From: Ruminococcus sp.
Lineage (GTDB): Bacteria > Bacillota_I > Bacilli_A > RF39 > UBA660
DNA: 61,771 nt
Direction: 5' to 3'
Assembly (NCBI GenBank): GCA_023663235.1
Contig: JAMPHW010000002.1
Coordinates: 1-61,771 of the forward strand
Shown: positions 18,544 through 28,683 of the stretch, piece by piece
Position numbering within the stretch: position 1 is the first letter of the stretch
Layout: every line of letters starts with the position of its first letter
Translations under genes and position numbers: made by a program
Notes under the pieces: generated by a model
What the model saw: the letters and a program-made list of their open reading frames with translations, nothing else
Told to the model about the DNA's origin: nothing
Database searches by the model: none

Positions 18544-19935
18544 TTAGATATTTTTTACATCCTTTTTATTAAAGAACATATAAGAAATAATAAGCATTAT
18601 TATAATATAAATTCCTACCACTAATAAAGATATTAAAGGCTTAATATTATATGGATTATTAGTAAAGTTAATTAAATAACTAAAATCCCAATGAAGTGAT
18701 ACAAATAACTTAAATAAGTTAAATGAATAAGTTAAAGCTAGACTATTTATAATATTACCAACTAAATATAAAAGAAAAGTTAAAGTTATAGATGCTGAGG
18801 TTGATAAAGTTATTACACTTAACATAAATGAAAATACTGTTAAAATTAAATATATAGGTATTTTAGCTCCTAAAGTTAATAATAAATATTTAAGTATTGG
18901 TACACTTATTAATGAATGATTATAAAGAATAGCTGGCAATTCTATAGTCTTAAAACCAAGTATAATTCCTCCTAAAATTATTTCAGTTATAATCATAAAT
19001 AAAATAACTAAAGGCACTAATAATAAAACTGTTAACAATTTAGAGGTTAATATTGTACTTCTCTTATAAGGCTTAGTAAGTAAAAACTTAATAGTTCCTT
19101 TATTAAATTCTTCACTCACAATAGAGCCACATATTAAAACAATATAAATTAGAATGAATAATTCAAACTCACTAGAAAAATTCTTTAAAACCGCATATAA
19201 ACTAGAACTATCATTAATATTTATTTTATTTTCTATTACATATTTATTAATATTTATTTCTTTTTCCAAAAAATTTAATCTTTTAGTTTCTTCTTTTGTA
19301 AGACCGTTTTTATCTTTTAAGTTATAATATTCTGCTAAATTAGTTGTAATGTAATTAATACTTTGATATAAATAATCCTGGTTATCATAAGGTATACTGT
19401 TATCTAAGCGATATTCATATATCTTAAGTAAAGATTCATTTAATTTAAGCACTTTTTTATCTGTCGCTGTTTTAATTTTTTCTTCTATTCTCTCCTTTTC
19501 TAAATTAAGAAAATATTTGTAATCATTGTTTTTTATTTTGGTATATAAAATATTATATTTATTCTCTAAAGTAATATCTAAATTCGGGTCTTTTGTCTTA
19601 TACTTATTAGTATATTTTTCAAATATAATATCATATAAATAAGTATCTATTAAATAATCAGTACTTGTTCCTTTAAACTTATCTTTTAATTTTAAAGCAT
19701 CAATCATACTAATATTTTCAATATATTCATCAAGATTCTCCTCTAATGTAATATCTAAATCTTTATTAATACTTTCTAATTCTTTTATATCAGGACCACT
19801 TTCTAGATTATAATTATCCATATCTTTATAGATAAAATTAGTTAAAAGAGCATATAAAATAAAAACAATCGTTACAATCATAAAACTTCTTTTTTTGAAT
19901 ATCTTTACTAATTCATTTTTAATCAGTCTAATCAA
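18544..19935 (-). CDS. ABC-2 type transporter permease
   Basis: 463 aa with TM1, a long extracytoplasmic insert and 5 C-terminal TMs. It overlaps the ATPase gene stop. Confidence 0.7.
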   Translation of the reverse strand: MIRLIKNELVKIFKKRSFMIVTIVFILYALLTNFIYKDMDNYNLESGPDIKELESINKDLDITLEENLDEYIENISMIDALKLKDKFKGTSTDYLIDTYLYDIIFEKYTNKYKTKDPNLDITLENKYNILYTKIKNNDYKYFLNLEKERIEEKIKTATDKKVLKLNESLLKIYEYRLDNSIPYDNQDYLYQSINYITTNLAEYYNLKDKNGLTKEETKRLNFLEKEININKYVIENKININDSSSLYAVLKNFSSEFELFILIYIVLICGSIVSEEFNKGTIKFLLTKPYKRSTILTSKLLTVLLLVPLVILFMIITEIILGGIILGFKTIELPAILYNHSLISVPILKYLLLTLGAKIPIYLILTVFSFMLSVITLSTSASITLTFLLYLVGNIINSLALTYSFNLFKLFVSLHWDFSYLINFTNNPYNIKPLISLLVVGIYIIIMLIISYMFFNKKDVKNI

Positions 19936-20824
19936 TTTTCTTGCCTCCCGCTCTTTTAATAAAAGCTTCTTCCAAAGTGAGAGTTTCTTTAACTACTTCA
20001 TAAACTAAAATATCATTTAAAACTAAGTCTTTGATAAATAAGGCTATATCACTCTCTTCTTTTATGACTTCTATATGATTATCATCTATAATTCTATCCT
20101 TATCACTTAAAAATTTTAAAATATTTTCTATATCACTTACTTTAATAATATATTTATTATCTTTAACTTCTTTTATTTTATCAATTGTATTTTCTTCAAT
20201 TATTGAACCTTCTGATATAATACATACTTTATTACAAAAACTTTCAAGTTCACTAAGATTATGACTAGATATTAAAATGCCCATTCCAAGTTTCGCTAGC
20301 TTTTGTAAAAGATTACGTAAATCTTTTATTCCTTCTGGATCTAAGCCATTAGTAGGTTCATCTAAAATAAGTAATTCTGGACTATTAATTAAAGCGATAG
20401 CAAGTCCTAGCCTTTGTCTCATGCCTAAAGAGTATTTGCTAACTTTATCATTTATTCTCTCTTCTAGGCCTACTAAAGAAACAAGCTTTAATATATCTTC
20501 GTCTGTTACACGAGAATATAAATTAGCCTGCAATTTTAAATTCTCGAAACCTGTTAAATACATATAAACATCAGGAGATTCTACTATAGCTCCAACTTTG
20601 CTTATAGCTTTAACAAAATTCCTTCTTATGTCATAGCCATTTATCAAAACTTTTCCTGAACCTTTTTGAAGTCCCAAAATACATTTAATCGTTGTTGTTT
20701 TACCAGCGCCATTAGGACCAATAAAAGCTAGAATATCCCCTTTATCAATTTCAAAAGAAACATCCTTTAAAATATATTTTTTACCAAATTTTTTTGATAA
20801 ATTTTCTACTTTTAAAATATTCAT
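19928..20824 (-). CDS. ABC transporter ATP-binding protein
   Basis: Walker A GPNGAGKTT, signature YSLGMRQRLGLA, Walker B LILDEPT. ATG 20824 is preferred because the ORF-track TTG lies in the RBS GAAAGGAAAT. Confidence 0.92.
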   Translation of the reverse strand: MNILKVENLSKKFGKKYILKDVSFEIDKGDILAFIGPNGAGKTTTIKCILGLQKGSGKVLINGYDIRRNFVKAISKVGAIVESPDVYMYLTGFENLKLQANLYSRVTDEDILKLVSLVGLEERINDKVSKYSLGMRQRLGLAIALINSPELLILDEPTNGLDPEGIKDLRNLLQKLAKLGMGILISSHNLSELESFCNKVCIISEGSIIEENTIDKIKEVKDNKYIIKVSDIENILKFLSDKDRIIDDNHIEVIKEESDIALFIKDLVLNDILVYEVVKETLTLEEAFIKRAGGKKID

Positions 20825-20892
20825 ATTATTTCCTTTCAAATAGCGGAAGCGGTTAAATATAATATAACATAAAAAAAGAATAAGAACAAGTT

Positions 20893-20923
20893 AAAGAAAA
20901 AGTAGACTAAAATTAATCTACTT
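20893..20923 (-). terminator. Rho-independent terminator directly after the topA remnant
   Basis: Minus strand AAGTAGA-TTAATTTTAG-TCTACTT followed by TTTTCTTT. It starts 3 nt after the remnant stop codon. Confidence 0.65.
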
Positions 20924-20925
20924 AA

Positions 20926-21250
20926 TTATTTACTTTCTTGTTCTAAAGTTCTTACTAAAGCCATTACTTGCTCTAATTCTTCACATAATATTTTTTATTT
21001 TTTGTAACTAATAAATTTTTACAGTTAGGACATATTTCTCCTGTTGGCTCATACCAAGTTGCATACTTACACTCAGGAAAATTACTGCACCCATAAAATA
21101 CTTTGCATTTTTTAGTGTGCCTTGCCACTATTTCGTGTTCACATTTAGAACATTTTCCATAGCTTTAAGTATAATTAACAAAATATCACTTAAACAAGTC
21201 AAATCTGTGCGCATATAAGTAATCAAACCTATTATCTCATTATTCAATTA
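20926..21250 (-). pseudogene. topA: Decayed second copy of topA: 5'-truncated, with a ~0.9 kb internal deletion and a frameshift
   Basis: 20977-21166 aligns to topA 23961-24151 with 6 substitutions and a 1-nt deletion. 21178-21248 aligns at ~85% to topA 25052-25126 (GLITYMRTD segment). Translation gives ..IIGLITYMRTDLTCLSD.. and ..YGKCSKCEHEIVARHTKKCKVFYGCSNFPECKYATWYEPTGEICPNCKNLLVTKNKK.. in different frames. Confidence 0.9.
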
Positions 21251-21287
21251 TAAGTATAACAAAAAGTAATTATTATATCTACTAATT

Positions 21288-22280
21288 TTAATTATCAGTA
21301 CGTTTTCTATTTAATTCTCTCCCTATTTCATTAAACTCTGGAGCATTAGTAAAATCAATCTCAATTCTACAATCGTCGTCATATTCTTCAACATAAGCAA
21401 TAATAGGATTATGAAAAATACCTTTCTGAGCAAGTTTTAATCCATCATAACTACTATTATGAGAAACACTCTTATCAAACTCACGTTCTTCCATTCCAAG
21501 TTCTCTAATAACATGCGTTTTTATATAATGATAAAAATAACCTAGACATGGATAATAATCAGAATAATTTTCAAAATTCTGGTCATCATATTCTTCTAAT
21601 AAATCCTGCTGTTGCTCTGATAAATCCTCAAAAGTTATTTGCCCTTTAGACATTTGTGTTTGCAGTTCATTAGCACTTCTAATATTATCCAAAACATTTT
21701 TAAAACCAGCAGAATAGAGTAACACTCTAGTAAGAATATTATATAGTAAAACGATTTCGTTTATTTCTTTTTCTGAATAACTATCAAATTTATTAGCCAA
21801 CCCCTTATCCTTAAGATAAGCTTCATGCATAAATTCATTATATCTTTTCACAATATTTGGAATATTTACTTCTGATAAATCAATCTCATCTTTAATAGCA
21901 TAATCAAGATTATTTAAGTCATAAGGTTCTGCTAAATAGTTTATTCTATATAAAGCATTTGCCATACACATTTCATTAAATAAATATAATACAAAATTCA
22001 ATGAAACAATTCGTTGATATTTACTATTTTCAAAATCCCATTTACCAACAGAAGGTTGAACATAATTAATAAAAATCCCATCTACAAATTGAACTCTTGC
22101 TAAAATTCCATTTCTTTCTGTAGAATAAATAATTCCATTTTTTGATAAAGTATAAAATAATAATTTTAAATAATCATTTAATAGCAAATCAAAACTATCA
22201 TATTTTGAACCCCTAAGTTCTGCTTCTCCAAATTCCTCTGGGTATTTTCCAATAATACTTATTGTATTAAAATTGTCCAT
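21288..22280 (-). CDS. Hypothetical cytoplasmic protein (330 aa), second gene of the topA-associated cassette
   Basis: Clean ORF with RBS GGAGAT, 5 nt after the upstream stop. It has no TM or signal peptide and no motif I recognise, plus an acidic stretch EDLSEQQQDLLEEYDDQNFENYSDYY. Confidence 0.7.
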   Translation of the reverse strand: MDNFNTISIIGKYPEEFGEAELRGSKYDSFDLLLNDYLKLLFYTLSKNGIIYSTERNGILARVQFVDGIFINYVQPSVGKWDFENSKYQRIVSLNFVLYLFNEMCMANALYRINYLAEPYDLNNLDYAIKDEIDLSEVNIPNIVKRYNEFMHEAYLKDKGLANKFDSYSEKEINEIVLLYNILTRVLLYSAGFKNVLDNIRSANELQTQMSKGQITFEDLSEQQQDLLEEYDDQNFENYSDYYPCLGYFYHYIKTHVIRELGMEEREFDKSVSHNSSYDGLKLAQKGIFHNPIIAYVEEYDDDCRIEIDFTNAPEFNEIGRELNRKRTDN

Positions 22281-22285
22281 ATCTA

Positions 22286-23869
22286 TTATCTCCTTCCTAA
22301 ATTAGAACCATCAGTAGGTGCATCTTCTGGTGATATTTCATAATTAAGAACAAAACCTTGATTTAATAAATTATTTTCTAAAGCTGCTTTTTTAGCTTCA
22401 GGCGTTAAATGTGCATAATTATCAAGCATTAATATCAACGAATTTGGTTCTCCTGGAATCTCTTCCTTTAACCCTGATGTTAATACATAATAACAAATAT
22501 TTTTGACTACTTCTTGTACTCTTTTGCTTAAAAAATGATAAAATTGATATCCATAATTAGAACCCTGTAAACACTCAACTTTACCTGAAAGTATATAGTT
22601 ATACGCATATAAAACATATTCTAAAAGACTTTCTCCTGTATAAAAAGTGCGATATATAACTTCATAACAATAAGCAAAAAGATTATTTACTGGTAAAATA
22701 TGAGGGTCAACTTCTAATATAAATTGTTTAGCTGAAGTTTTTAAATATCCTAATCCCTCAATGGTACCAAATCTCTCTAAATAAGACTTTAATAAATTCA
22801 TAGATTGAAGGGCATTCGCTTTAGAATTAAGTTTAGAAGCTCTTATTCTCTCTTTTATAGTCTTACACTTATATACTTCTTTATTATCTACTATAACTCT
22901 TAAAATAAAGTAATTATCAGCATCTTCAATATTAAAATTTGGCATTTCAATACCATTAGTGTCCACAGCATTCTCTAAATTAATAGTACCAAAATCACGA
23001 ATAGAACAACCTCTTTTCAAAGATGTTAATGTACCTTTTATTTTTCTTAAGATAGGCTTCCCATCTCCACCAATTACATAGAAAGAAACTGTCATTTCTT
23101 TACCAACAAATGTCTCAAAAATTTCTCTCATCCGATCATAATCTTTTGAGCTATATATCTTATTATTACATTTTTGCTCTTCTTCTCTTAACTCAGATAC
23201 ATAGTCAAAATTATATCCTCCGAGCCATGAACTAATTTTTTTAAGTTCTTCGCCACTATTAATAATGCAATTATACTCTTTTTCTAGTTCTTTTTTGTTT
23301 CTATATAAGGCAATGGCATCCTCATCAGTTTGAGCATTAGCAGTATGCAAAAAAACTAAAGTATCAAAAGTAATTTGTTCTCCCTTTTGTTCTAGATAAC
23401 ATAAAACGCTATAATTCTCAGCAAGAACTCTTCCTAAAGGTAGACCTAATTCTTGGAAATGAATTAACTTTTTTATTACTTCTTCCGTTTGTGATCTAAA
23501 AAGTATACTATCTAATTCTGTAGAGTTTATTTTCTTTACTTTTGAAGACATAGTCCAAGTTAAATCATTAAGGCAATTATAAGTATCTTTATTTATTACT
23601 AAACCATGCATTTCTGCTAAAACTAAAAAATCATAAATTTCTCCTACATAATTCGTATTTACCCCATTTTGATGCCAAGTTCTAAAATTAGGCAAAATTT
23701 CTTCCTTAAATTTTTTAATACTAAGATTATCTTTTTCTAATCCTGCTATCCAATGGACTATAATATAATCAGTACACAAAGCTAAATCTTCATTATCAGA
23801 AAAAAAGCCTAATTCTTTAGCAATATTAATATATTTAGAATTTTCTCTAACGGCTTTATAAAATTCCAT
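22286..23869 (-). CDS. Hypothetical cytoplasmic protein (527 aa), first gene of the topA-associated cassette
   Basis: Clean ORF. The start is taken at ATG 23869 (MEFYKAV.., RBS AAGGGGG) because the ORF-track start at 23923 is the TTG of the -35 box. No TM, Walker A, HExxH or HTH recognised. Confidence 0.7.
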   Translation of the reverse strand: MEFYKAVRENSKYINIAKELGFFSDNEDLALCTDYIIVHWIAGLEKDNLSIKKFKEEILPNFRTWHQNGVNTNYVGEIYDFLVLAEMHGLVINKDTYNCLNDLTWTMSSKVKKINSTELDSILFRSQTEEVIKKLIHFQELGLPLGRVLAENYSVLCYLEQKGEQITFDTLVFLHTANAQTDEDAIALYRNKKELEKEYNCIINSGEELKKISSWLGGYNFDYVSELREEEQKCNNKIYSSKDYDRMREIFETFVGKEMTVSFYVIGGDGKPILRKIKGTLTSLKRGCSIRDFGTINLENAVDTNGIEMPNFNIEDADNYFILRVIVDNKEVYKCKTIKERIRASKLNSKANALQSMNLLKSYLERFGTIEGLGYLKTSAKQFILEVDPHILPVNNLFAYCYEVIYRTFYTGESLLEYVLYAYNYILSGKVECLQGSNYGYQFYHFLSKRVQEVVKNICYYVLTSGLKEEIPGEPNSLILMLDNYAHLTPEAKKAALENNLLNQGFVLNYEISPEDAPTDGSNLGRR

Positions 23870-23893
23870 AAAAGACCCCCTTAAATGTCTTTT

Positions 23894-23923
23894 ATTATAA
23901 CATATGATGATATTATTTGTCAA
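23894..23923 (-). promoter_or_regulatory. Consensus SigA promoter of the two-gene cassette
   Basis: Minus strand TTGACA (23918-23923), an 18 nt spacer, then TGTTATAAT (extended -10, TATAAT at 23894-23899). It lies 19 nt after the topA stop. Confidence 0.8.
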
Positions 23924-23942
23924 TTTTTACAAAAAGAAAAGA

Positions 23943-25967
23943 CTACTTAACGTAGCCACATTCTTCACATAATACTTTTTTATTTTTTGTAACTAATAAA
24001 TTTTTACAGTTAGGACATATTTCTCCCGTTGGCTCATACCAAGTTGCATACTTACACTTAGGAAAATTACTGCACCCATAAAATACTTTACCTTTTTTAG
24101 TGTGCCTTGCCACTATTTCGTGTTCACATTTAGGACAGTTTCCATAGCTTTTTGTTTCTTTTTCATCTTTTTTTACATAGTTACAGTTAGGATAATTAGA
24201 ACAAGCAACAAATTCTCCATATTTACCACTTCTAACAACTAAATCACTACCACACAGAGGACAAGACTCTCCTGTTTTTTCAGGTTCTTTCTTTTCCATT
24301 TCTTTAAACGCTTTTTCCACTAAAGGAGCAAACTCTTGATAAAAATTAGTTAATACTTCAATATTATCTTTTTTATCATCAGCTATTTCATCAAGTTCTG
24401 TTTCCATATTAGCTGTATATTCAACATTTACTATTCCACTAAAGAACTCTTGTAATTTATCAGTTGTTTCTATCCCAATATCAGTTGGATAAAACTTTTT
24501 ATCTTCAATTTTAACATAGCCCCGGTCTTTAATCGTTTTCATAATCGTTGCATAAGTACTTGGTCTACCTATTCCTAAACTTTCCATTTCCTTAATTAAA
24601 CTTGATTCTGTGTATCTTGGAGCAGGCTTAGTAAAGTGTTGGAATTTCTCTATTTTATCAGCAGCAATAACATCACTTTTATAATTTTTAAAGTCTGGTA
24701 AAATAACATCTTCGCTATCTTCAAATTCTTTATAAACCTTTAAGTAGCCATCAAACTTTAAAACACTTCCTGATGCTTTAAATTGATATCCATTATTTTC
24801 TAAAGTTACAGTAGTTGCTAAAGTTTTAGCATTACTCATTAAATAAGCTAAAGTTCTTATATAAATTAAACGATATAACTTATATTCATCAGCACTTAAA
24901 TATTCTTTTAAAGACTCTGGAGTACGCATAATACTAGTTGGTCTTATTGCTTCGTGAGCATCTTGAGCTCCCTTAGGTTCCTTTGATGCTTTAACTCCAC
25001 CTACATATTCTGGTCCATAATTATTTTTAATATAACTTTTAGTATCATGAACAAAAACATCACTTAAACGAGTTGAATCTGTACGCATATAAGTAATTAA
25101 ACCAACCGTTTCATTCCCTATATTCATACCTTCATATAATTTTTGAGCTATTTGCATTGTTTTACTTGAAGAAAAATTAAGACGATTTGCTGCCATTTGT
25201 TGTAAAGTTGAAGTTCTAAAAGGATCTTTTGCTTTTTTTAACTTTTCTTTTTCTTCTACATTTTCTATCTTAAAAGACTTAGATAATTTATTTAATATCT
25301 CATCAGCTTCTACTTCACTATTAATTTCTATTTTTTTATTATGGTATTTCTCAAGTTCGGCTTTAAATTCTTTAAAATCAGCTTCAATAGTCCAATACTC
25401 TTTAGGAATAAAAGCTAGTATTTCCCTTTCTCTATCAACTATTAATTTAAGTGCTACTGATTGAACACGTCCAGCACTTTTACCACCAGTTTTTCTTTGC
25501 ATTAATTTACTTAATCTAAATCCAATAATACGATCTAGCATTCTTCTTGTCTCTTGACTTTTAACTAAATCCATATCTATTTTACGTGCATTATTTATTG
25601 CATTTACTACAACATCTTTGGTTATTTCATTAAAAACAACCCTTTCATAATCATTATCTTTTAAAGCAAGCTCATCATATAAATGCCATGATATAGCTTC
25701 TCCTTCACGGTCAGGGTCTGTTGCAAGTATTACTTTATCGCTTTCTTTAGCCATTTTCTTTAAAGCTGAAATATCTTTTTTCTTTCCTGTTATTGGAATA
25801 TAATTAGGTTTAAAATCATTTTCTATATCAATTCCTAAACCATATTTTCCAGTTGTTGCTAAATCCCTAATATGTCCTTTACTAGATACTACTTTATAAT
25901 CTTCCCCTAAATACTTTTCAATCGTTTTACTTTTTGCAGGTGATTCTACAATTACTAATTTACTCAT
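23943..25967 (-). CDS. topA: DNA topoisomerase I
   Basis: 674 aa with a Toprim N-terminus (LVIVESPAKSKTI, DPDREGE), an active-site Tyr segment (GLITYMRTDSTRLS) and three C-terminal Cys4 zinc ribbons. Confidence 0.97.
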   Translation of the reverse strand: MSKLVIVESPAKSKTIEKYLGEDYKVVSSKGHIRDLATTGKYGLGIDIENDFKPNYIPITGKKKDISALKKMAKESDKVILATDPDREGEAISWHLYDELALKDNDYERVVFNEITKDVVVNAINNARKIDMDLVKSQETRRMLDRIIGFRLSKLMQRKTGGKSAGRVQSVALKLIVDREREILAFIPKEYWTIEADFKEFKAELEKYHNKKIEINSEVEADEILNKLSKSFKIENVEEKEKLKKAKDPFRTSTLQQMAANRLNFSSSKTMQIAQKLYEGMNIGNETVGLITYMRTDSTRLSDVFVHDTKSYIKNNYGPEYVGGVKASKEPKGAQDAHEAIRPTSIMRTPESLKEYLSADEYKLYRLIYIRTLAYLMSNAKTLATTVTLENNGYQFKASGSVLKFDGYLKVYKEFEDSEDVILPDFKNYKSDVIAADKIEKFQHFTKPAPRYTESSLIKEMESLGIGRPSTYATIMKTIKDRGYVKIEDKKFYPTDIGIETTDKLQEFFSGIVNVEYTANMETELDEIADDKKDNIEVLTNFYQEFAPLVEKAFKEMEKKEPEKTGESCPLCGSDLVVRSGKYGEFVACSNYPNCNYVKKDEKETKSYGNCPKCEHEIVARHTKKGKVFYGCSNFPKCKYATWYEPTGEICPNCKNLLVTKNKKVLCEECGYVK

Positions 25968-26610
25968 TTTCTTTTCCCTTTCTTAAAGTATCTATTACTT
26001 CTAGCCATTTTTCTTCATTTCCTATCCAAAAGTTTGGATTAATATTCTCACTATCATCATCTTTATTAATATCATTAAAATAATATTCAATTATTTTTAA
26101 ATTTTTACATATATCTATTTCTAATTTAGGCTCTTCTATTAATCTATTTTGAATATTAATTAAAGTTATATTTTTATTAGGAAACAAAAGACCAATTGCT
26201 TTTAAAAAGCTTTTAAGTTCTTCTAAATTAACATTTTGATTAGTAAGCATTGCTATATTTCTAGCTTCTTTAATATGTTCTTTTAATCTATTGTATCTTT
26301 TTTGCATTAATTTTTTACAATTAAGAATTGCTGCCCCAATGTCTTCATCCTCTTTTATATGATGAGCAATAATTATCCCGTTATTATCTTTAATTCTTTT
26401 TAAACCTGGAATATGCCACTCTTCACTTACATCTTGAAAACTATTTAAAAATACATTAAAATCACTTTCAAAAAGCCTCAAAACAGTTTTCAAATCTGTG
26501 CCTAGCCAATCAAAAGGATAAGCATAAGTTCTAAGGCCAGTTAACGTAAGATAATAGGCTGGTCTGCAAAAAGGACCTATACTAAAAACTAAATCATATT
26601 TATTAACCAT
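25960..26610 (-). CDS. DUF1796-like (putative papain-like cysteine peptidase) protein
   Basis: 216 aa. The N-terminus FSIGPFCRPAYYLTLTGLRTYAYPFDWL matches the SxGxxC...PFDW pattern I associate with DUF1796. Confidence 0.5.
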   Translation of the reverse strand: MVNKYDLVFSIGPFCRPAYYLTLTGLRTYAYPFDWLGTDLKTVLRLFESDFNVFLNSFQDVSEEWHIPGLKRIKDNNGIIIAHHIKEDEDIGAAILNCKKLMQKRYNRLKEHIKEARNIAMLTNQNVNLEELKSFLKAIGLLFPNKNITLINIQNRLIEEPKLEIDICKNLKIIEYYFNDINKDDDSENINPNFWIGNEEKWLEVIDTLRKGKENE

Positions 26611-26643
26611 AAATAACCTAATTACTTTCTTTATTTGTGCTTA

Positions 26644-28683
26644 TTATGAGTTATAGAGATAACTATCTAACTTCTCGTTTAAATAGTTAAAGTAATTGCT
26701 TTTAATCGCTAAACTACTCATCTTTAATTTTAAACTCACTTTTTCATTAATTGCAAGTATTTCTTCATCAGTATACACTTTTTCTGTATAGTAATTAATA
26801 TTATTAGTACTAGAATCATAAAAAGCATATTCATTTTTCCATGATGCATCATCAAATATGACTAATGACTCATAATCAGCATCTAAAACATCATAGCCTG
26901 AATATAAACGCGAATCAAAATTTAAATTAAATAGATTAGCTAAAGTAGGTGTTGTATTTACGTGAGCTGTAAATTCTTTAAACTCTGTCTTTGATAGTGA
27001 TGAATTATAAATTATAAAAGGTACTCTTTCTGAATCATTATCTTTAGAAATATCATAGCCATAAGCTTTAGTTAAATTAGGTTTAGAAATACCATAAGGA
27101 TAGTGGTCAGCAAATAAAACAATTACTGTATCATCTAACATATCTCTCTCTTCTAAACCAGTTAATAATGAACCTACTGCATCATCAACAACCTTTAATT
27201 TTGACATATACGCTCTAACATCATTTGGATAACTAGTTGGAAATAAATCTTTATATAAATAATTATATGTTGAATCATCCGTATATGGCATATGTGATGT
27301 AACTGTCGTTAAAAATGTCATAAATGGTCTGCCTGTTTCTTTTTCGTCTAGCACCTTCAAATAAGATTTAATAAAGTCATCATCACTAGCCCAATTACCA
27401 TAAGAAGTACTATACTTAATATTTAAATCTGTAACTTTATAATATTTTTTACTTCCTAAATTCTTATGAATTGTAGTTCTTGGATAGTAAGCATCAATAT
27501 GATCATGATAACTACTAGTAGAATAACCTTTATTATTAAACAAGTTAAATAAACTAGTAAAATAAGTATTATTCTTATAATATGTCGCTGTACAATTATT
27601 ATTAATTGTATAAAGCCCTGTTATATTACTAAATTCATTATTTATAGTACTACAAGTATTTCTTGGACTATAATAGTTACTCCAACTCCAGCCTTCGTTA
27701 TATAATTTATAAATATTAGGATAATATTCTTCGTTTATCATTAAATTACTACCTGATTCAATCATTAAAACAATCAAGTTTTTATTTTCAAATATCCCTG
27801 TATAAGCATTTGTTTTACTTGGATATTTACTTATAAAATACTTATTTAAAGTATTTTTATTAACATTTTTTTCTTCATCAATAATACTTTTCCAAATATC
27901 ATTATCAATTGTTAATTGCTTTTTAAATGTAAGTGAGGCTTCTGGCTTACTAGATTCTAAATCATCAGGATTATAATCTATCTCCGTATCTAATTCTTCT
28001 CCTGGAAGTAAATATTCCTTTACATCTAAAAATCCAAACCCAATATACCCAAAATCACTAACAAGCAAACTAGGATTATTAGGTTTTTTAAATAAATCTA
28101 ATGATGAAACTGATTGCATTTTATTTTGAAAAACATCAAACTTTAAAGTTGTATAAAAACCTAAGCTAAAAAATATTAATAGCAATACTTCAAAATATTT
28201 AATAATGCCTAAATATATATCCCACTTTCTTTTTGGAATATCAAAAGTTATTCTTTTATCAACAAAAATATAATAAATTAACAATAAAATTAACGGAATA
28301 AAAATAAAATAATAAGTTATATGGAAACTTTTAATGAAATCCCAAATATATGAAGTTACAGCCTCTGCTTGAGAACTAGAAGCAATAGAGACATATATAC
28401 TAAAATAATTTTTAAAACCTAATTGAACAATTCCGTAAACGCTAAAAAAAGTAACAAAAATAATATTAAATATTGTTCCAGCCCGTTTAGGCAAAAAAGA
28501 AAATAAAAAACTAAAAAAAGTAGCTAAAATATTAAGTCCAAAAAATATTCTTAAACTTGCCCACGATAAAAGCGTTAATCCACTAATTAAATGGAAAATA
28601 ATTTCCAAAAGTAATAGCGATACTAATAACAAACAATAATTTCTAACAAACTTATATTGCCACAATCTCCTTATTTTCTTCAT
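26644..28683 (-). CDS. LTA synthase (LtaS) family sulfatase-domain protein
   Basis: 679 aa with ~5 N-terminal TMs followed by an extracytoplasmic sulfatase/alkaline-phosphatase-like domain (LIVLMIESGS.., FADHYPYG). Confidence 0.8.
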   Translation of the reverse strand: MKKIRRLWQYKFVRNYCLLLVSLLLLEIIFHLISGLTLLSWASLRIFFGLNILATFFSFLFSFLPKRAGTIFNIIFVTFFSVYGIVQLGFKNYFSIYVSIASSSQAEAVTSYIWDFIKSFHITYYFIFIPLILLLIYYIFVDKRITFDIPKRKWDIYLGIIKYFEVLLLIFFSLGFYTTLKFDVFQNKMQSVSSLDLFKKPNNPSLLVSDFGYIGFGFLDVKEYLLPGEELDTEIDYNPDDLESSKPEASLTFKKQLTIDNDIWKSIIDEEKNVNKNTLNKYFISKYPSKTNAYTGIFENKNLIVLMIESGSNLMINEEYYPNIYKLYNEGWSWSNYYSPRNTCSTINNEFSNITGLYTINNNCTATYYKNNTYFTSLFNLFNNKGYSTSSYHDHIDAYYPRTTIHKNLGSKKYYKVTDLNIKYSTSYGNWASDDDFIKSYLKVLDEKETGRPFMTFLTTVTSHMPYTDDSTYNYLYKDLFPTSYPNDVRAYMSKLKVVDDAVGSLLTGLEERDMLDDTVIVLFADHYPYGISKPNLTKAYGYDISKDNDSERVPFIIYNSSLSKTEFKEFTAHVNTTPTLANLFNLNFDSRLYSGYDVLDADYESLVIFDDASWKNEYAFYDSSTNNINYYTEKVYTDEEILAINEKVSLKLKMSSLAIKSNYFNYLNEKLDSYLYNS

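What the first reader, a model, noticed from the sequence alone, without database searches (positions are those of the whole stretch)
20926..24151. Intact topA, a two-gene insert, then a decayed 5'-truncated topA copy: footprint of a Campbell-type insertion
Seen in the sequence: 20977-21166 matches the last ~190 nt of topA (23961-24151, Zn-ribbon region) with only 6 substitutions and a 1-nt deletion by hand alignment. 21178-21248 matches topA 25052-25126 (the GLITYMRTDS active-site segment) at about 85% with a 6-nt gap. The downstream copy is therefore a 5'-truncated topA with a ~0.9 kb internal deletion, a frameshift and stops. The two copies diverge only in the last codons (CEECGYVK* in the intact gene, CEELEQVMALVRTLEQESK* in the remnant). 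The remnant is followed 3 nt later by a good terminator (20893-20923), whereas intact topA has no terminator and runs 19 nt later into a consensus promoter. Two unknown ORFs lie between the copies. Inference: this layout is what single-crossover integration of a circular DNA carrying a topA 3' fragment produces. No integrase, transposase or terminal inverted repeats are visible, so the mobilising agent is missing or acted in trans.
Basis: partly seen in the sequence, partly recalled or inferred. Interest (0 to 1): 0.8.

Follow-up and report, generated by a model that had tools for sequence, protein, structure and literature searches.

The report
Decayed topA duplicate beside accessory cassette
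A broken second copy of the end of the topoisomerase I gene really does lie downstream of a two-gene insert, but it is most likely the eroded leftover of a later duplication at a site the insert already occupied, not the scar of the insert's first arrival; it is an ordinary relic of genome evolution.

Summary
20976-21166 matches topA 23960-24151 at 185/192. 21159-21229 matches topA 25032-25103 at 61/72. The two pieces are fused at an 8-9-nt microhomology.

- About 20 related gut Bacilli (RF39-like MAGs) have topA followed directly by the ABC-transporter gene, or by other cargo such as AbiE. None has a topA remnant.
- Two nearer lineages carry diverged orthologues of the same two unknown genes at this site. 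One shows the same left junction. The other shows the right junction with no long remnant, only a ~30-nt second copy of the topA terminal hairpin.
- The remnant lies between two diverged copies of the stretch that runs from the orf330 3' end to the abcA promoter. The 50-nt tail after it resembles an orf330 3' end.
- The 191-nt piece is 96% identical to the genome's own topA but 82% to the nearest relative's.

Best reading: a ~4.2-kb direct insertion-duplication (Campbell-type, one-sided-homology or unequal crossover) running from mid-topA to the abcA promoter. It arose after the cassette was in place, and two deletions then eroded its distal copy. The cassette's function is unknown. Interest is modest.

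The parts
23943..25967 (-). Intact topA (674 aa: Toprim, Topoisom_bac, three Zn ribbons) with the native C-terminus CEECGYVK*.
   Evidence: Pfam. It is 82-90% aa identical to topA of about 25 relatives, all of which end CEECGY[VT]K*.
23930..23957 (-). Native intrinsic terminator of topA. The hairpin GGCTAC-GTTAA-GTAGTC encloses the stop codon and is followed by TTTTCTTTTT. The left border of the cassette lies just after it.
   Evidence: -9.4 kcal/mol, z -3.1. The motif sits at 27 topA ends in 2.26 Mb of loci. It occurs once in the window against 0.01 expected.
23894..23923 (-). The cassette's own promoter: TTGACA, 18 nt, TG-TATAAT.
   Evidence: 12/12 match. Homologous pairs in other genomes carry their own TTGACA-17/18-TAxAAT promoter.
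22286..23869 (-). orf545 (527 aa from ATG 23869; the mechanical ORF extends to TTG 23923). Unknown function.
   Evidence: No Pfam, PADLOC, NCBIfam or PHROG hit. Four homologues among 5.8e9 proteins and 26 among 1.84e9 representatives. AF2 pLDDT 62, with only a weak match (best E 6e-3; alignment positions not reported) to ~65-130-residue Sm/LSm-type barrels; the model's only beta block spans residues 258-334.
21288..22280 (-). orf330, the constant partner of orf545 (5-nt spacing). Unknown function.
   Evidence: it lies directly downstream of an orf545 homologue in every contig that extends far enough. AF2 pLDDT 73, no PDB fold match at E<=0.001.
21230..21287 (-). Region A: a decayed copy of the post-orf330 spacer and the abcA promoter (-10 region). 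It forms the proximal side of the duplication joint. The hairpin and T-run are lost.
   Evidence: It aligns to the L087 post-orf330 region (42/55, shuffle p 0.0005; distal part against the abcA promoter p 0.0012). No terminator-like fold.
21167..21229 (-). Remnant mid piece, from the topA active-site segment (GLITYMRTDS...). It contains a frameshift and a stop.
   Evidence: 61/72 (85%) to 25032-25103. Its codon usage groups it with window-type topA alleles.
20976..21166 (-). Remnant 3' piece, from the last Zn-ribbon region of topA. It stops 17 nt short of the topA stop codon and has a 1-nt deletion near its 3' end. 21159-21166 is the microhomology of the ~880-nt internal deletion.
   Evidence: 185/192. 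95-96% identical to the window's own topA against 82% to L086 and 84% to the next-best relative.
20926..20975 (-). Non-topA tail, probably the last ~14 codons of a second orf330 allele (reads ...GFSKNFRTRK*).
   Evidence: 35/45 to the L087 orf330 3' end (p 0.014), and not alignable to the window's own orf330 end (p 0.99). Collinear with L087 from the orf330 3' end to the abcA RBS, 107/147. No other copy in the window or loci.
20855..20923 (-). Region B: a working terminator (hairpin 20900-20923, T-run 20890-20901) and the abcA promoter (-35 at 20884-20889, -10 within 20855-20868).
   Evidence: Homologous to the L087 terminator and abcA promoter (one search score 56, p<0.0005).
19928..20824 (-). 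abcA (ABC ATPase), the conserved right-hand neighbour of topA in relatives.

Best explanation
The topA remnant is a pseudogene relic of a direct segmental insertion-duplication of about 4.2 kb. The duplicated unit ran from about nt 860 of topA, through the two-gene cassette, into the abcA promoter. The event happened at a site where the cassette already sat.

One joint of the event was homologous, inside topA. The other was illegitimate, joining the abcA promoter to mid-topA; this is the A|mid joint at about 21230-21246. A Campbell-type single crossover of a circular fragment, one-sided-homology (HFIR-like) integration of linear DNA, and unequal sister-chromatid exchange all give this same topology.

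The product was topA-cassette-A | topA'-cassette'-B-abcA. Two deletions then stripped the redundant distal copy. One removed about 880 nt inside topA' at the microhomology AAAAGYTAT. The other ran from the codons CEE of topA' to about 14 codons before the end of orf330'. What is left is 72 + 191 nt of topA, a 50-nt orf330-like tail, and the working terminator and promoter in front of abcA.

The two copies are unevenly diverged: 96% in the 191-nt piece, 85% in the mid piece, about 73% between A and B, and the tail is unlike the present orf330. This suggests that the two units were different alleles, meaning an incoming allele displaced a resident L087-like one, with the 191-nt tract being the crossover or gene-conversion zone. 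An older in-situ duplication with later gene conversion of that tract fits too.

Shown: the repeats, the junctions, the empty and occupied sites in relatives, and the relative ages. Inferred: the order of events, the mechanism of the joints, and the two-allele origin. The remnant itself most likely does nothing beyond forming the 3' UTR of the cassette transcript.
For: - The repeats and the microhomology joint are real.
- Intact topA has the native end and native terminator, so the cassette begins after it.
- Relatives show empty or differently filled sites and no remnant.
- L086 (topA 93% aa) has topA-orf545-orf330 with the same left junction.
- L087 has orf545-orf330, then 98 nt, then abcA, with no long remnant.
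- Region A matches the post-orf330 spacer and abcA promoter of L087 (p 0.0005 and 0.0012).
- The tail plus region B is collinear with L087 from the orf330 3' end to the abcA RBS (107/147). The duplication model predicts exactly this arrangement.
- The 191-nt piece is closest to the window's own topA (95-96% against 82-84% to L086), whereas the cassette is shared with lineages whose orthologues are only 65-78% identical.
- Divergence differs between the two remnant pieces (7/192 against 11/72, Fisher p 0.002).
- Substitutions in the 3' piece are mostly non-synonymous, as expected for neutral decay.
- The cassette shows no compositional anomaly.
Against: - No genome of the same species exists in the collections (best full-length topA 89%), so the state before the event is inferred from other species.
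- The short alignments that carry the model (A 49-55 nt, tail 45 nt) rest on mononucleotide-shuffle tests in 26% GC DNA, and the tail result is only p 0.014.
- The first 13 nt of the tail and about 15 nt at the A|mid joint remain unexplained.
- The 96% identity of the 191-nt tract needs either gene conversion or a crossover there.
- L087 could have lost a remnant rather than never having had one.
- L086 and L087 are short contigs that each show only one side of the locus.
Confidence: 0.6

Rival explanations
1. A circular DNA carrying the two genes plus a topA 3' fragment integrated by a single crossover into a naive topA. The remnant is the footprint of that founding event. L087 later lost it by deletion, and the 191-nt tract has been kept similar by gene conversion.
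For: The topology fits. The site is empty in about 20 relatives. L087 keeps a ~30-nt second copy of the topA terminal hairpin directly after orf330; this could be the last stump of a longer displaced topA end.
Against: Region A contains an abcA-promoter copy, so the incoming unit came from a locus that already had the order topA-cassette-abcA. The tail looks like an orf330 3' end lying between the remnant and the terminator, which a naive site would not have. The intact copy, not the remnant, carries the native topA end and hairpin. The 3' piece is far younger than the divergence of the cassette.
Confidence: 0.15
2. A purely in-situ tandem duplication of identical sequence, with no incoming DNA, followed by decay. 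The unevenness in divergence comes from gene conversion of the longest tract and fast drift elsewhere.
For: It is the simplest event that gives the A|mid joint. Tandem duplications are frequent in bacteria; transformation-stimulated merodiploidy is documented in PMC3784515.
Against: The tail cannot be aligned with the window's own orf330 3' end (p 0.99) but does align with L087's. A and B are only about 73% alike, whereas the 191-nt tract is 96%.
Confidence: 0.2
3. Assembly or binning chimera: the remnant is an artefact of joining reads from two strains.
For: The window comes from a metagenome-type genome, and its only record in the collection is a single contig of 219,768 nt. The repeat is short.
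Against: An assembler does not create a copy with 6 substitutions, an indel, an 880-nt microhomology deletion and unique flanks on both sides.
Confidence: 0.03
4. The remnant is kept because it is useful. It could encode a small Zn-ribbon peptide (51-aa ORF 20973-21128), serve as a structured 3' UTR, or act as a homology arm that lets the cassette loop out and re-enter topA.
For: Region A has lost its terminator, so the cassette transcript probably runs through the remnant to terminator B. Two 191-nt direct repeats at 96% identity flank the cassette.
Against: The ORF starts at GTG with no RBS and its changes are mostly non-synonymous. There is no Rfam hit. No other lineage keeps such a remnant. 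Loop-out between the repeats would usually leave topA with the frameshifted end ...KNKKYYVKN*, which lacks its last CxxC.
Confidence: 0.04

Closest known systems
Campbell-type (single-crossover) insertion-duplication and transformation-induced merodiploidy / tandem duplication (Johnston et al. 2013, PMC3784515)
   Same: Direct repeats of a chromosomal segment bracket the duplicated material. One copy of the target gene is complete and one is 5'-truncated. There is one novel joint. The structure is unstable and decays by deletion.
   Different: The duplication here is small (~4 kb) and heavily eroded. Its outer joint is illegitimate rather than repeat-mediated. No circular form or donor is known.
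Homology-facilitated illegitimate recombination and the 'displacement' model for Rhs/CDI/T6SS effector-immunity arrays (Kirchberger et al. 2017, PMC5361080, and references cited there)
   Same: A conserved upstream gene serves as the homology anchor. An incoming variable module is placed next to it. The older module and the old 3' end of the anchor gene are pushed downstream and survive as orphan fragments.
   Different: The anchor is an essential housekeeping gene (topA), not a polymorphic toxin gene. Only ~50 nt of the displaced module survives. No toxin or immunity function is shown for the pair.
Integrative elements that target the 3' end of a housekeeping gene and restore it (recalled from memory: SCCmec at rlmH/orfX, ICESt1/3 at fda)
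   Same: The insert lies immediately after a conserved gene. A short direct repeat of the gene's terminal ~30 nt flanks the cargo; this is seen by combining L086 (left side) and L087 (right side).
   Different: No recombinase gene is in or next to the cassette. The long remnant includes mid-gene sequence and an internal deletion, which att-site recombination does not produce.

Membership tests
Campbell-type / insertion-duplication product | Two direct copies of a chromosomal segment flank the inserted material, one copy complete and one truncated. | tested here: met
   a full topA plus a 5'-truncated copy, same orientation, about 3 kb apart.
Campbell-type / insertion-duplication product | A novel joint where the distal end of the unit meets the start of the repeated segment. 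| tested here: met
   Region A (a copy of the post-orf330 spacer and abcA promoter) abuts the topA mid piece at about 21230-21246.
Campbell-type / insertion-duplication product | The event delivered the cargo into a previously empty site. | tested here: not met
   The cassette is shared with L086 and L087 at the same junctions. The remnant's 3' piece is younger than that split, and an orf330-like tail lies distal to the remnant.
Campbell-type / insertion-duplication product | A circular intermediate or excised form exists. | not testable with these tools
   This needs reads or PCR.
Site-specific integrative element (integrase plus att) | A tyrosine or serine recombinase gene in or beside the element. 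| tested here: not met
   There is no Pfam, NCBIfam or PHROG recombinase hit in either ORF. The neighbours are the sulfatase, DUF1796, topA and ABC-transporter genes.
Site-specific integrative element (integrase plus att) | Short direct att repeats at both ends. | tested here: inconclusive
   The topA terminal hairpin motif is present at the left end (window, L086) and again after orf330 in L087. In the window's region B only TTAAGTAG and the T-run are recognisable.
Transposon / IS | Transposase gene, terminal inverted repeats and a target-site duplication. | tested here: not met
   No transposase domain. No inverted repeats at the borders.
Known anti-phage defence systems (PADLOC 2.0) | A match of either protein to a defence-system model. 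| tested here: not met
   no hits at E<=1. The only support is context, since AbiE occupies the same site in L012.
Rhs/T6SS-type module displacement array | Orphan 3' fragment(s) of the anchor gene plus retained downstream module genes. | tested here: inconclusive
   An orphan topA 3' fragment is present, but only a 50-nt relic of the displaced module remains. No toxin or immunity evidence exists.

The most novel reading that the evidence does not exclude
The orf545/orf330 pair is a new, fast-evolving accessory module, possibly a conflict or defence module. Its alleles replace one another at the topA-ABC transporter hotspot without any dedicated recombinase. Instead they use the 3' part of the essential topA gene as the homology anchor, by Campbell-type or one-sided-homology integration. 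The remnant would then be the orphan left by one such allele displacement. This would extend Rhs/T6SS-style displacement to a housekeeping-gene anchor in reduced-genome gut Bacilli.
Probability: 0.25. Interest if true: 0.55.

Novelty: new member of a known kind. Interest (0 to 1): 0.3.

Why it matters
The case shows, at base-pair resolution, how a small accessory cassette next to an essential gene turns over in uncultured RF39-like gut bacteria that lack obvious mobile-element machinery. Duplication anchored on host homology and deletion at microhomologies do the work, not an integrase. It marks the topA-abcA spacer as a variable site in this clade. It also flags an uncharacterised, very rare two-gene family for functional study. 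As a biological mechanism it is not new.

Tried and rejected
Function of the two ORFs; none of these gave a result:
- Pfam, PADLOC, NCBIfam and PHROGs.
- Profile searches against PDB sequences.
- AF2 models with Foldseek against the PDB.
- A full HMMER scan of 1.84e9 representatives, followed by Pfam on the distant hits.
- tblastn against phages and plasmids.
- IMG/VR scans.

Other searches:
- No tRNA in the window and no Rfam RNA in 20000-27000.
- topA remnants in 80 related loci: none.
- Another copy of the tail, or of the linker sequences, in the window or any locus: none.
- A closer genome: exact topA look-up and a topA homologue search found nothing above 89% full-length.
- JGI metagenome scan: only two distant pairs at 35% identity.

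Ideas considered and dropped:
- The tail as the native end of this species' topA. All relatives end CEECGY[VT]K*.
- Reciprocal-recombinant hairpin arms as an att signature. This would over-read 6-nt stems.
- A KEF-codon microhomology at the CEE|tail joint. The reading frames do not agree.
- Composition offers no foreign signal.
Full report
**Setting.** The window is 26% GC. Its topA (23943-25967, minus strand; Toprim, Topoisom_bac and Zn-ribbon domains) is 82-90% identical in protein to topA of uncultured gut 'Bacilli', including Mycoplasma sp. CAG:776 and Candidatus Caccenecus-type MAGs. No full-length topA above 89% identity exists among 5.8e9 proteins, and the exact protein is not on record. 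There is therefore no same-species genome to compare with.

**Observation.** BLASTN confirms both similarities. 20976-21166 matches 23960-24151 at 185/192, with 6 substitutions and a 1-nt deletion. 21159-21229 matches 25032-25103 at 61/72, E 6e-18. The repeat finder recovers both. The pieces overlap by 8 nt (ATAGCTTT / ATAACTTT), which in topA orientation reads AAAAGCTAT / AAAAGTTAT. The ~880-nt gap is therefore a microhomology deletion inside a copy that once covered at least 1.14 kb of topA.

**The intact gene has the native end.** All 27 relatives examined end CEECGY[VT]K* or a near variant. In most of them (27 of the topA ends scanned, the window's included) the last codons and stop codon lie inside a hairpin (GGYTAY-NNNAA-RTARYC) followed by a T-run. 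This motif occurs 31 times in 2.26 Mb, 27 of them at topA ends. The window's topA has it at 23930-23957. The claim that intact topA lacks a terminator is therefore wrong. The insert begins just after the hairpin, with a perfect TTGACA-18-TG-TATAAT promoter.

**The site in relatives.**
- About 15 close relatives have the order sulfatase-topA-abcA-abcP, with only 70-270 nt between topA and abcA.
- L094-L098 (topA 89%) have 176-510 nt of non-coding spacer.
- L012 carries 4.9 kb at this spot, including AbiEi/AbiEii. L020 and L025 carry a 180-197-aa ORF, and L052 a 223-aa ORF.
- The spacer is thus a variable site. None of the 80 loci has a second topA fragment.

**The cargo.**
- orf545 (527 aa from ATG 23869) and orf330 have no Pfam, PADLOC, NCBIfam or PHROG match.
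- Each has only four homologues in the large protein collection, and orf545 has 26 in 1.84e9 representatives. None of the nine distant relatives scanned has a Pfam domain.
- There is no PDB sequence or fold match and no phage, plasmid or IMG/VR relative.
- The two genes are adjacent wherever the contig extends far enough, and where the upstream region was read (L081-L084, L086) they have their own promoter; the genomic contexts differ.
- Their function is unknown, and the cassette's composition matches its flanks.

**Two nearer lineages are decisive.**
- L086 (topA 93% over 299 aa) has topA-orf545 (70%)-orf330 (77%) with the same left junction as the window...GGCTACGTTAAGTAGTC, a T-run, then the TTGACA promoter.
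- L087 has orf545 (73%)-orf330 (65%), then 98 nt, then abcA (79%) and abcP. It has no long remnant.
- The L087 post-orf330 terminator, GACTAC-ATAA-GTAGCC-TTTTTCTTTT, is a second copy of the topA terminal hairpin.
- The founding insertion of the cassette, seen by combining the left side from L086 with the right side from L087, appears to be flanked by a ~30-nt direct repeat of the topA end. That repeat, not the 260-nt remnant, looks like the original footprint.
- L086, L087 and the window are about equally distant from one another in the pair (65-78% aa). This fits an old, vertically inherited cassette.

**Anatomy around the remnant.**
- Upstream of it, region A (21230-21287) aligns with the L087 post-orf330 region (42/55, p 0.0005). 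Its distal part aligns with the abcA promoter's spacer and -10 box (p 0.0012). Region A has lost the hairpin and T-run.
- Downstream, the 50-nt tail (20926-20975) has no other copy. It cannot be aligned with the window's own orf330 end (p 0.99) but matches the L087 orf330 end at 35/45 (p 0.014). In that frame it reads ...GFSKNFRTRK*, against ...GFDKNLTRERTN* in L087.
- The tail plus region B is collinear with L087 from the orf330 3' end, through the terminator and abcA promoter, to the RBS (107/147).
- The locus therefore reads: topA - cassette - [post-orf330 spacer and PabcA copy] | [topA mid..3'] - [orf330' end - terminator - PabcA] - abcA. This is the signature of a direct duplication of a unit running from about nt 860 of topA to the abcA promoter, with most of the distal copy deleted.

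**Timing.**
- The 3' piece is 95-96% identical to the window's own topA, while both copies are 82-84% identical to L086. The next-best relative stands at 84%.
- The duplication, or a conversion of this tract, therefore postdates the split from L086. The cassette predates that split.
- Divergence is uneven: 7/192 against 11/72 (Fisher p 0.002), about 73% between A and B, and a tail unlike the present orf330.
- In the mid piece, one remnant state (AAT where the intact gene has CAT) is the state common among relatives.
- This gradient fits a unit from a different allele recombining in the 191-nt tract, with crossover and heteroduplex repair there. It also fits an older duplication with later gene conversion of the only tract long enough to convert. 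I cannot separate the two.

**Mechanism.** A Campbell-type crossover of a circularised fragment, one-sided-homology (HFIR-like) integration, and unequal exchange all yield this topology. Transformation-induced tandem duplication is documented in PMC3784515. Displacement of modules that leaves orphan 3' ends, attributed to HFIR, is described in PMC5361080. Its reading as the founding insertion into a naive topA does not.

**Verdict.** It is a decaying relic of a secondary insertion-duplication beside an uncharacterised, rare two-gene cassette at a variable site. It is a new member of a known kind, and interest is modest (0.3). The main uncertainty comes from the short alignments in AT-rich DNA and the lack of same-species genomes.

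Noticed in passing
window 25960-26610 (-): A DUF1796 (putative papain-like peptidase) gene sits between the sulfatase gene and topA only in this genome. In every other locus with a sulfatase match, no DUF1796 relative is present and topA follows the sulfatase gene (directly, within ~30-110 nt, in the seven spacers read). The gene's last codons read through the native topA RBS, and its stop overlaps the topA start. It is a second, independent insertion flanking topA.
   Followed up: partly
L012:5630-10545; L020:6337-7074; L025:5605-6342; L052:5797-6620: The topA-abcA spacer is a variable site in this clade. L012 holds an 802-aa fn3-like surface protein, a 180-aa ORF and an AbiEi/AbiEii pair. 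L020 and L025 carry 180-aa and 197-aa ORFs that by eye resemble the L012 180-aa ORF (no alignment run). L052 holds an unrelated 223-aa ORF.
   Followed up: partly
window 23930-23957 and topA ends of 27 loci: Across the clade the topA stop codon lies inside the stem-loop of the gene's own intrinsic terminator (GGYTAY-NNNAA-RTARYC plus a T-run). The last four codons are therefore constrained both as protein and as RNA structure.
   Followed up: partly
L087:1628-1665 versus L086:886-915: The cassette appears flanked by a ~30-nt direct repeat of the topA terminal hairpin and T-run. The left copy is seen in L086 and the window, the right copy in L087. This may be the footprint of the founding insertion. 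No recombinase is nearby.
   Followed up: partly
L062, L048, L078 (contig ends): Three MAG contigs end inside topA at residues 524-592. This could be chance fragmentation or a repeat-induced assembly break, as would happen if those genomes also hold a topA 3' duplicate.
   Followed up: no
window 20973-21128 (-): A 51-aa ORF (GTG start, no RBS) preserves one Zn-ribbon of topA within the remnant. It is probably not expressed as a protein.
   Followed up: partly
L093:1441-5645; L085:5104-8689: In L093 a distant version of the pair (35% identity) follows a 548-aa unknown ORF and a histidine-kinase/receiver hybrid. L085 has a further run of four unknown ORFs near its pair. These may be additional partners of the family.
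   Followed up: no
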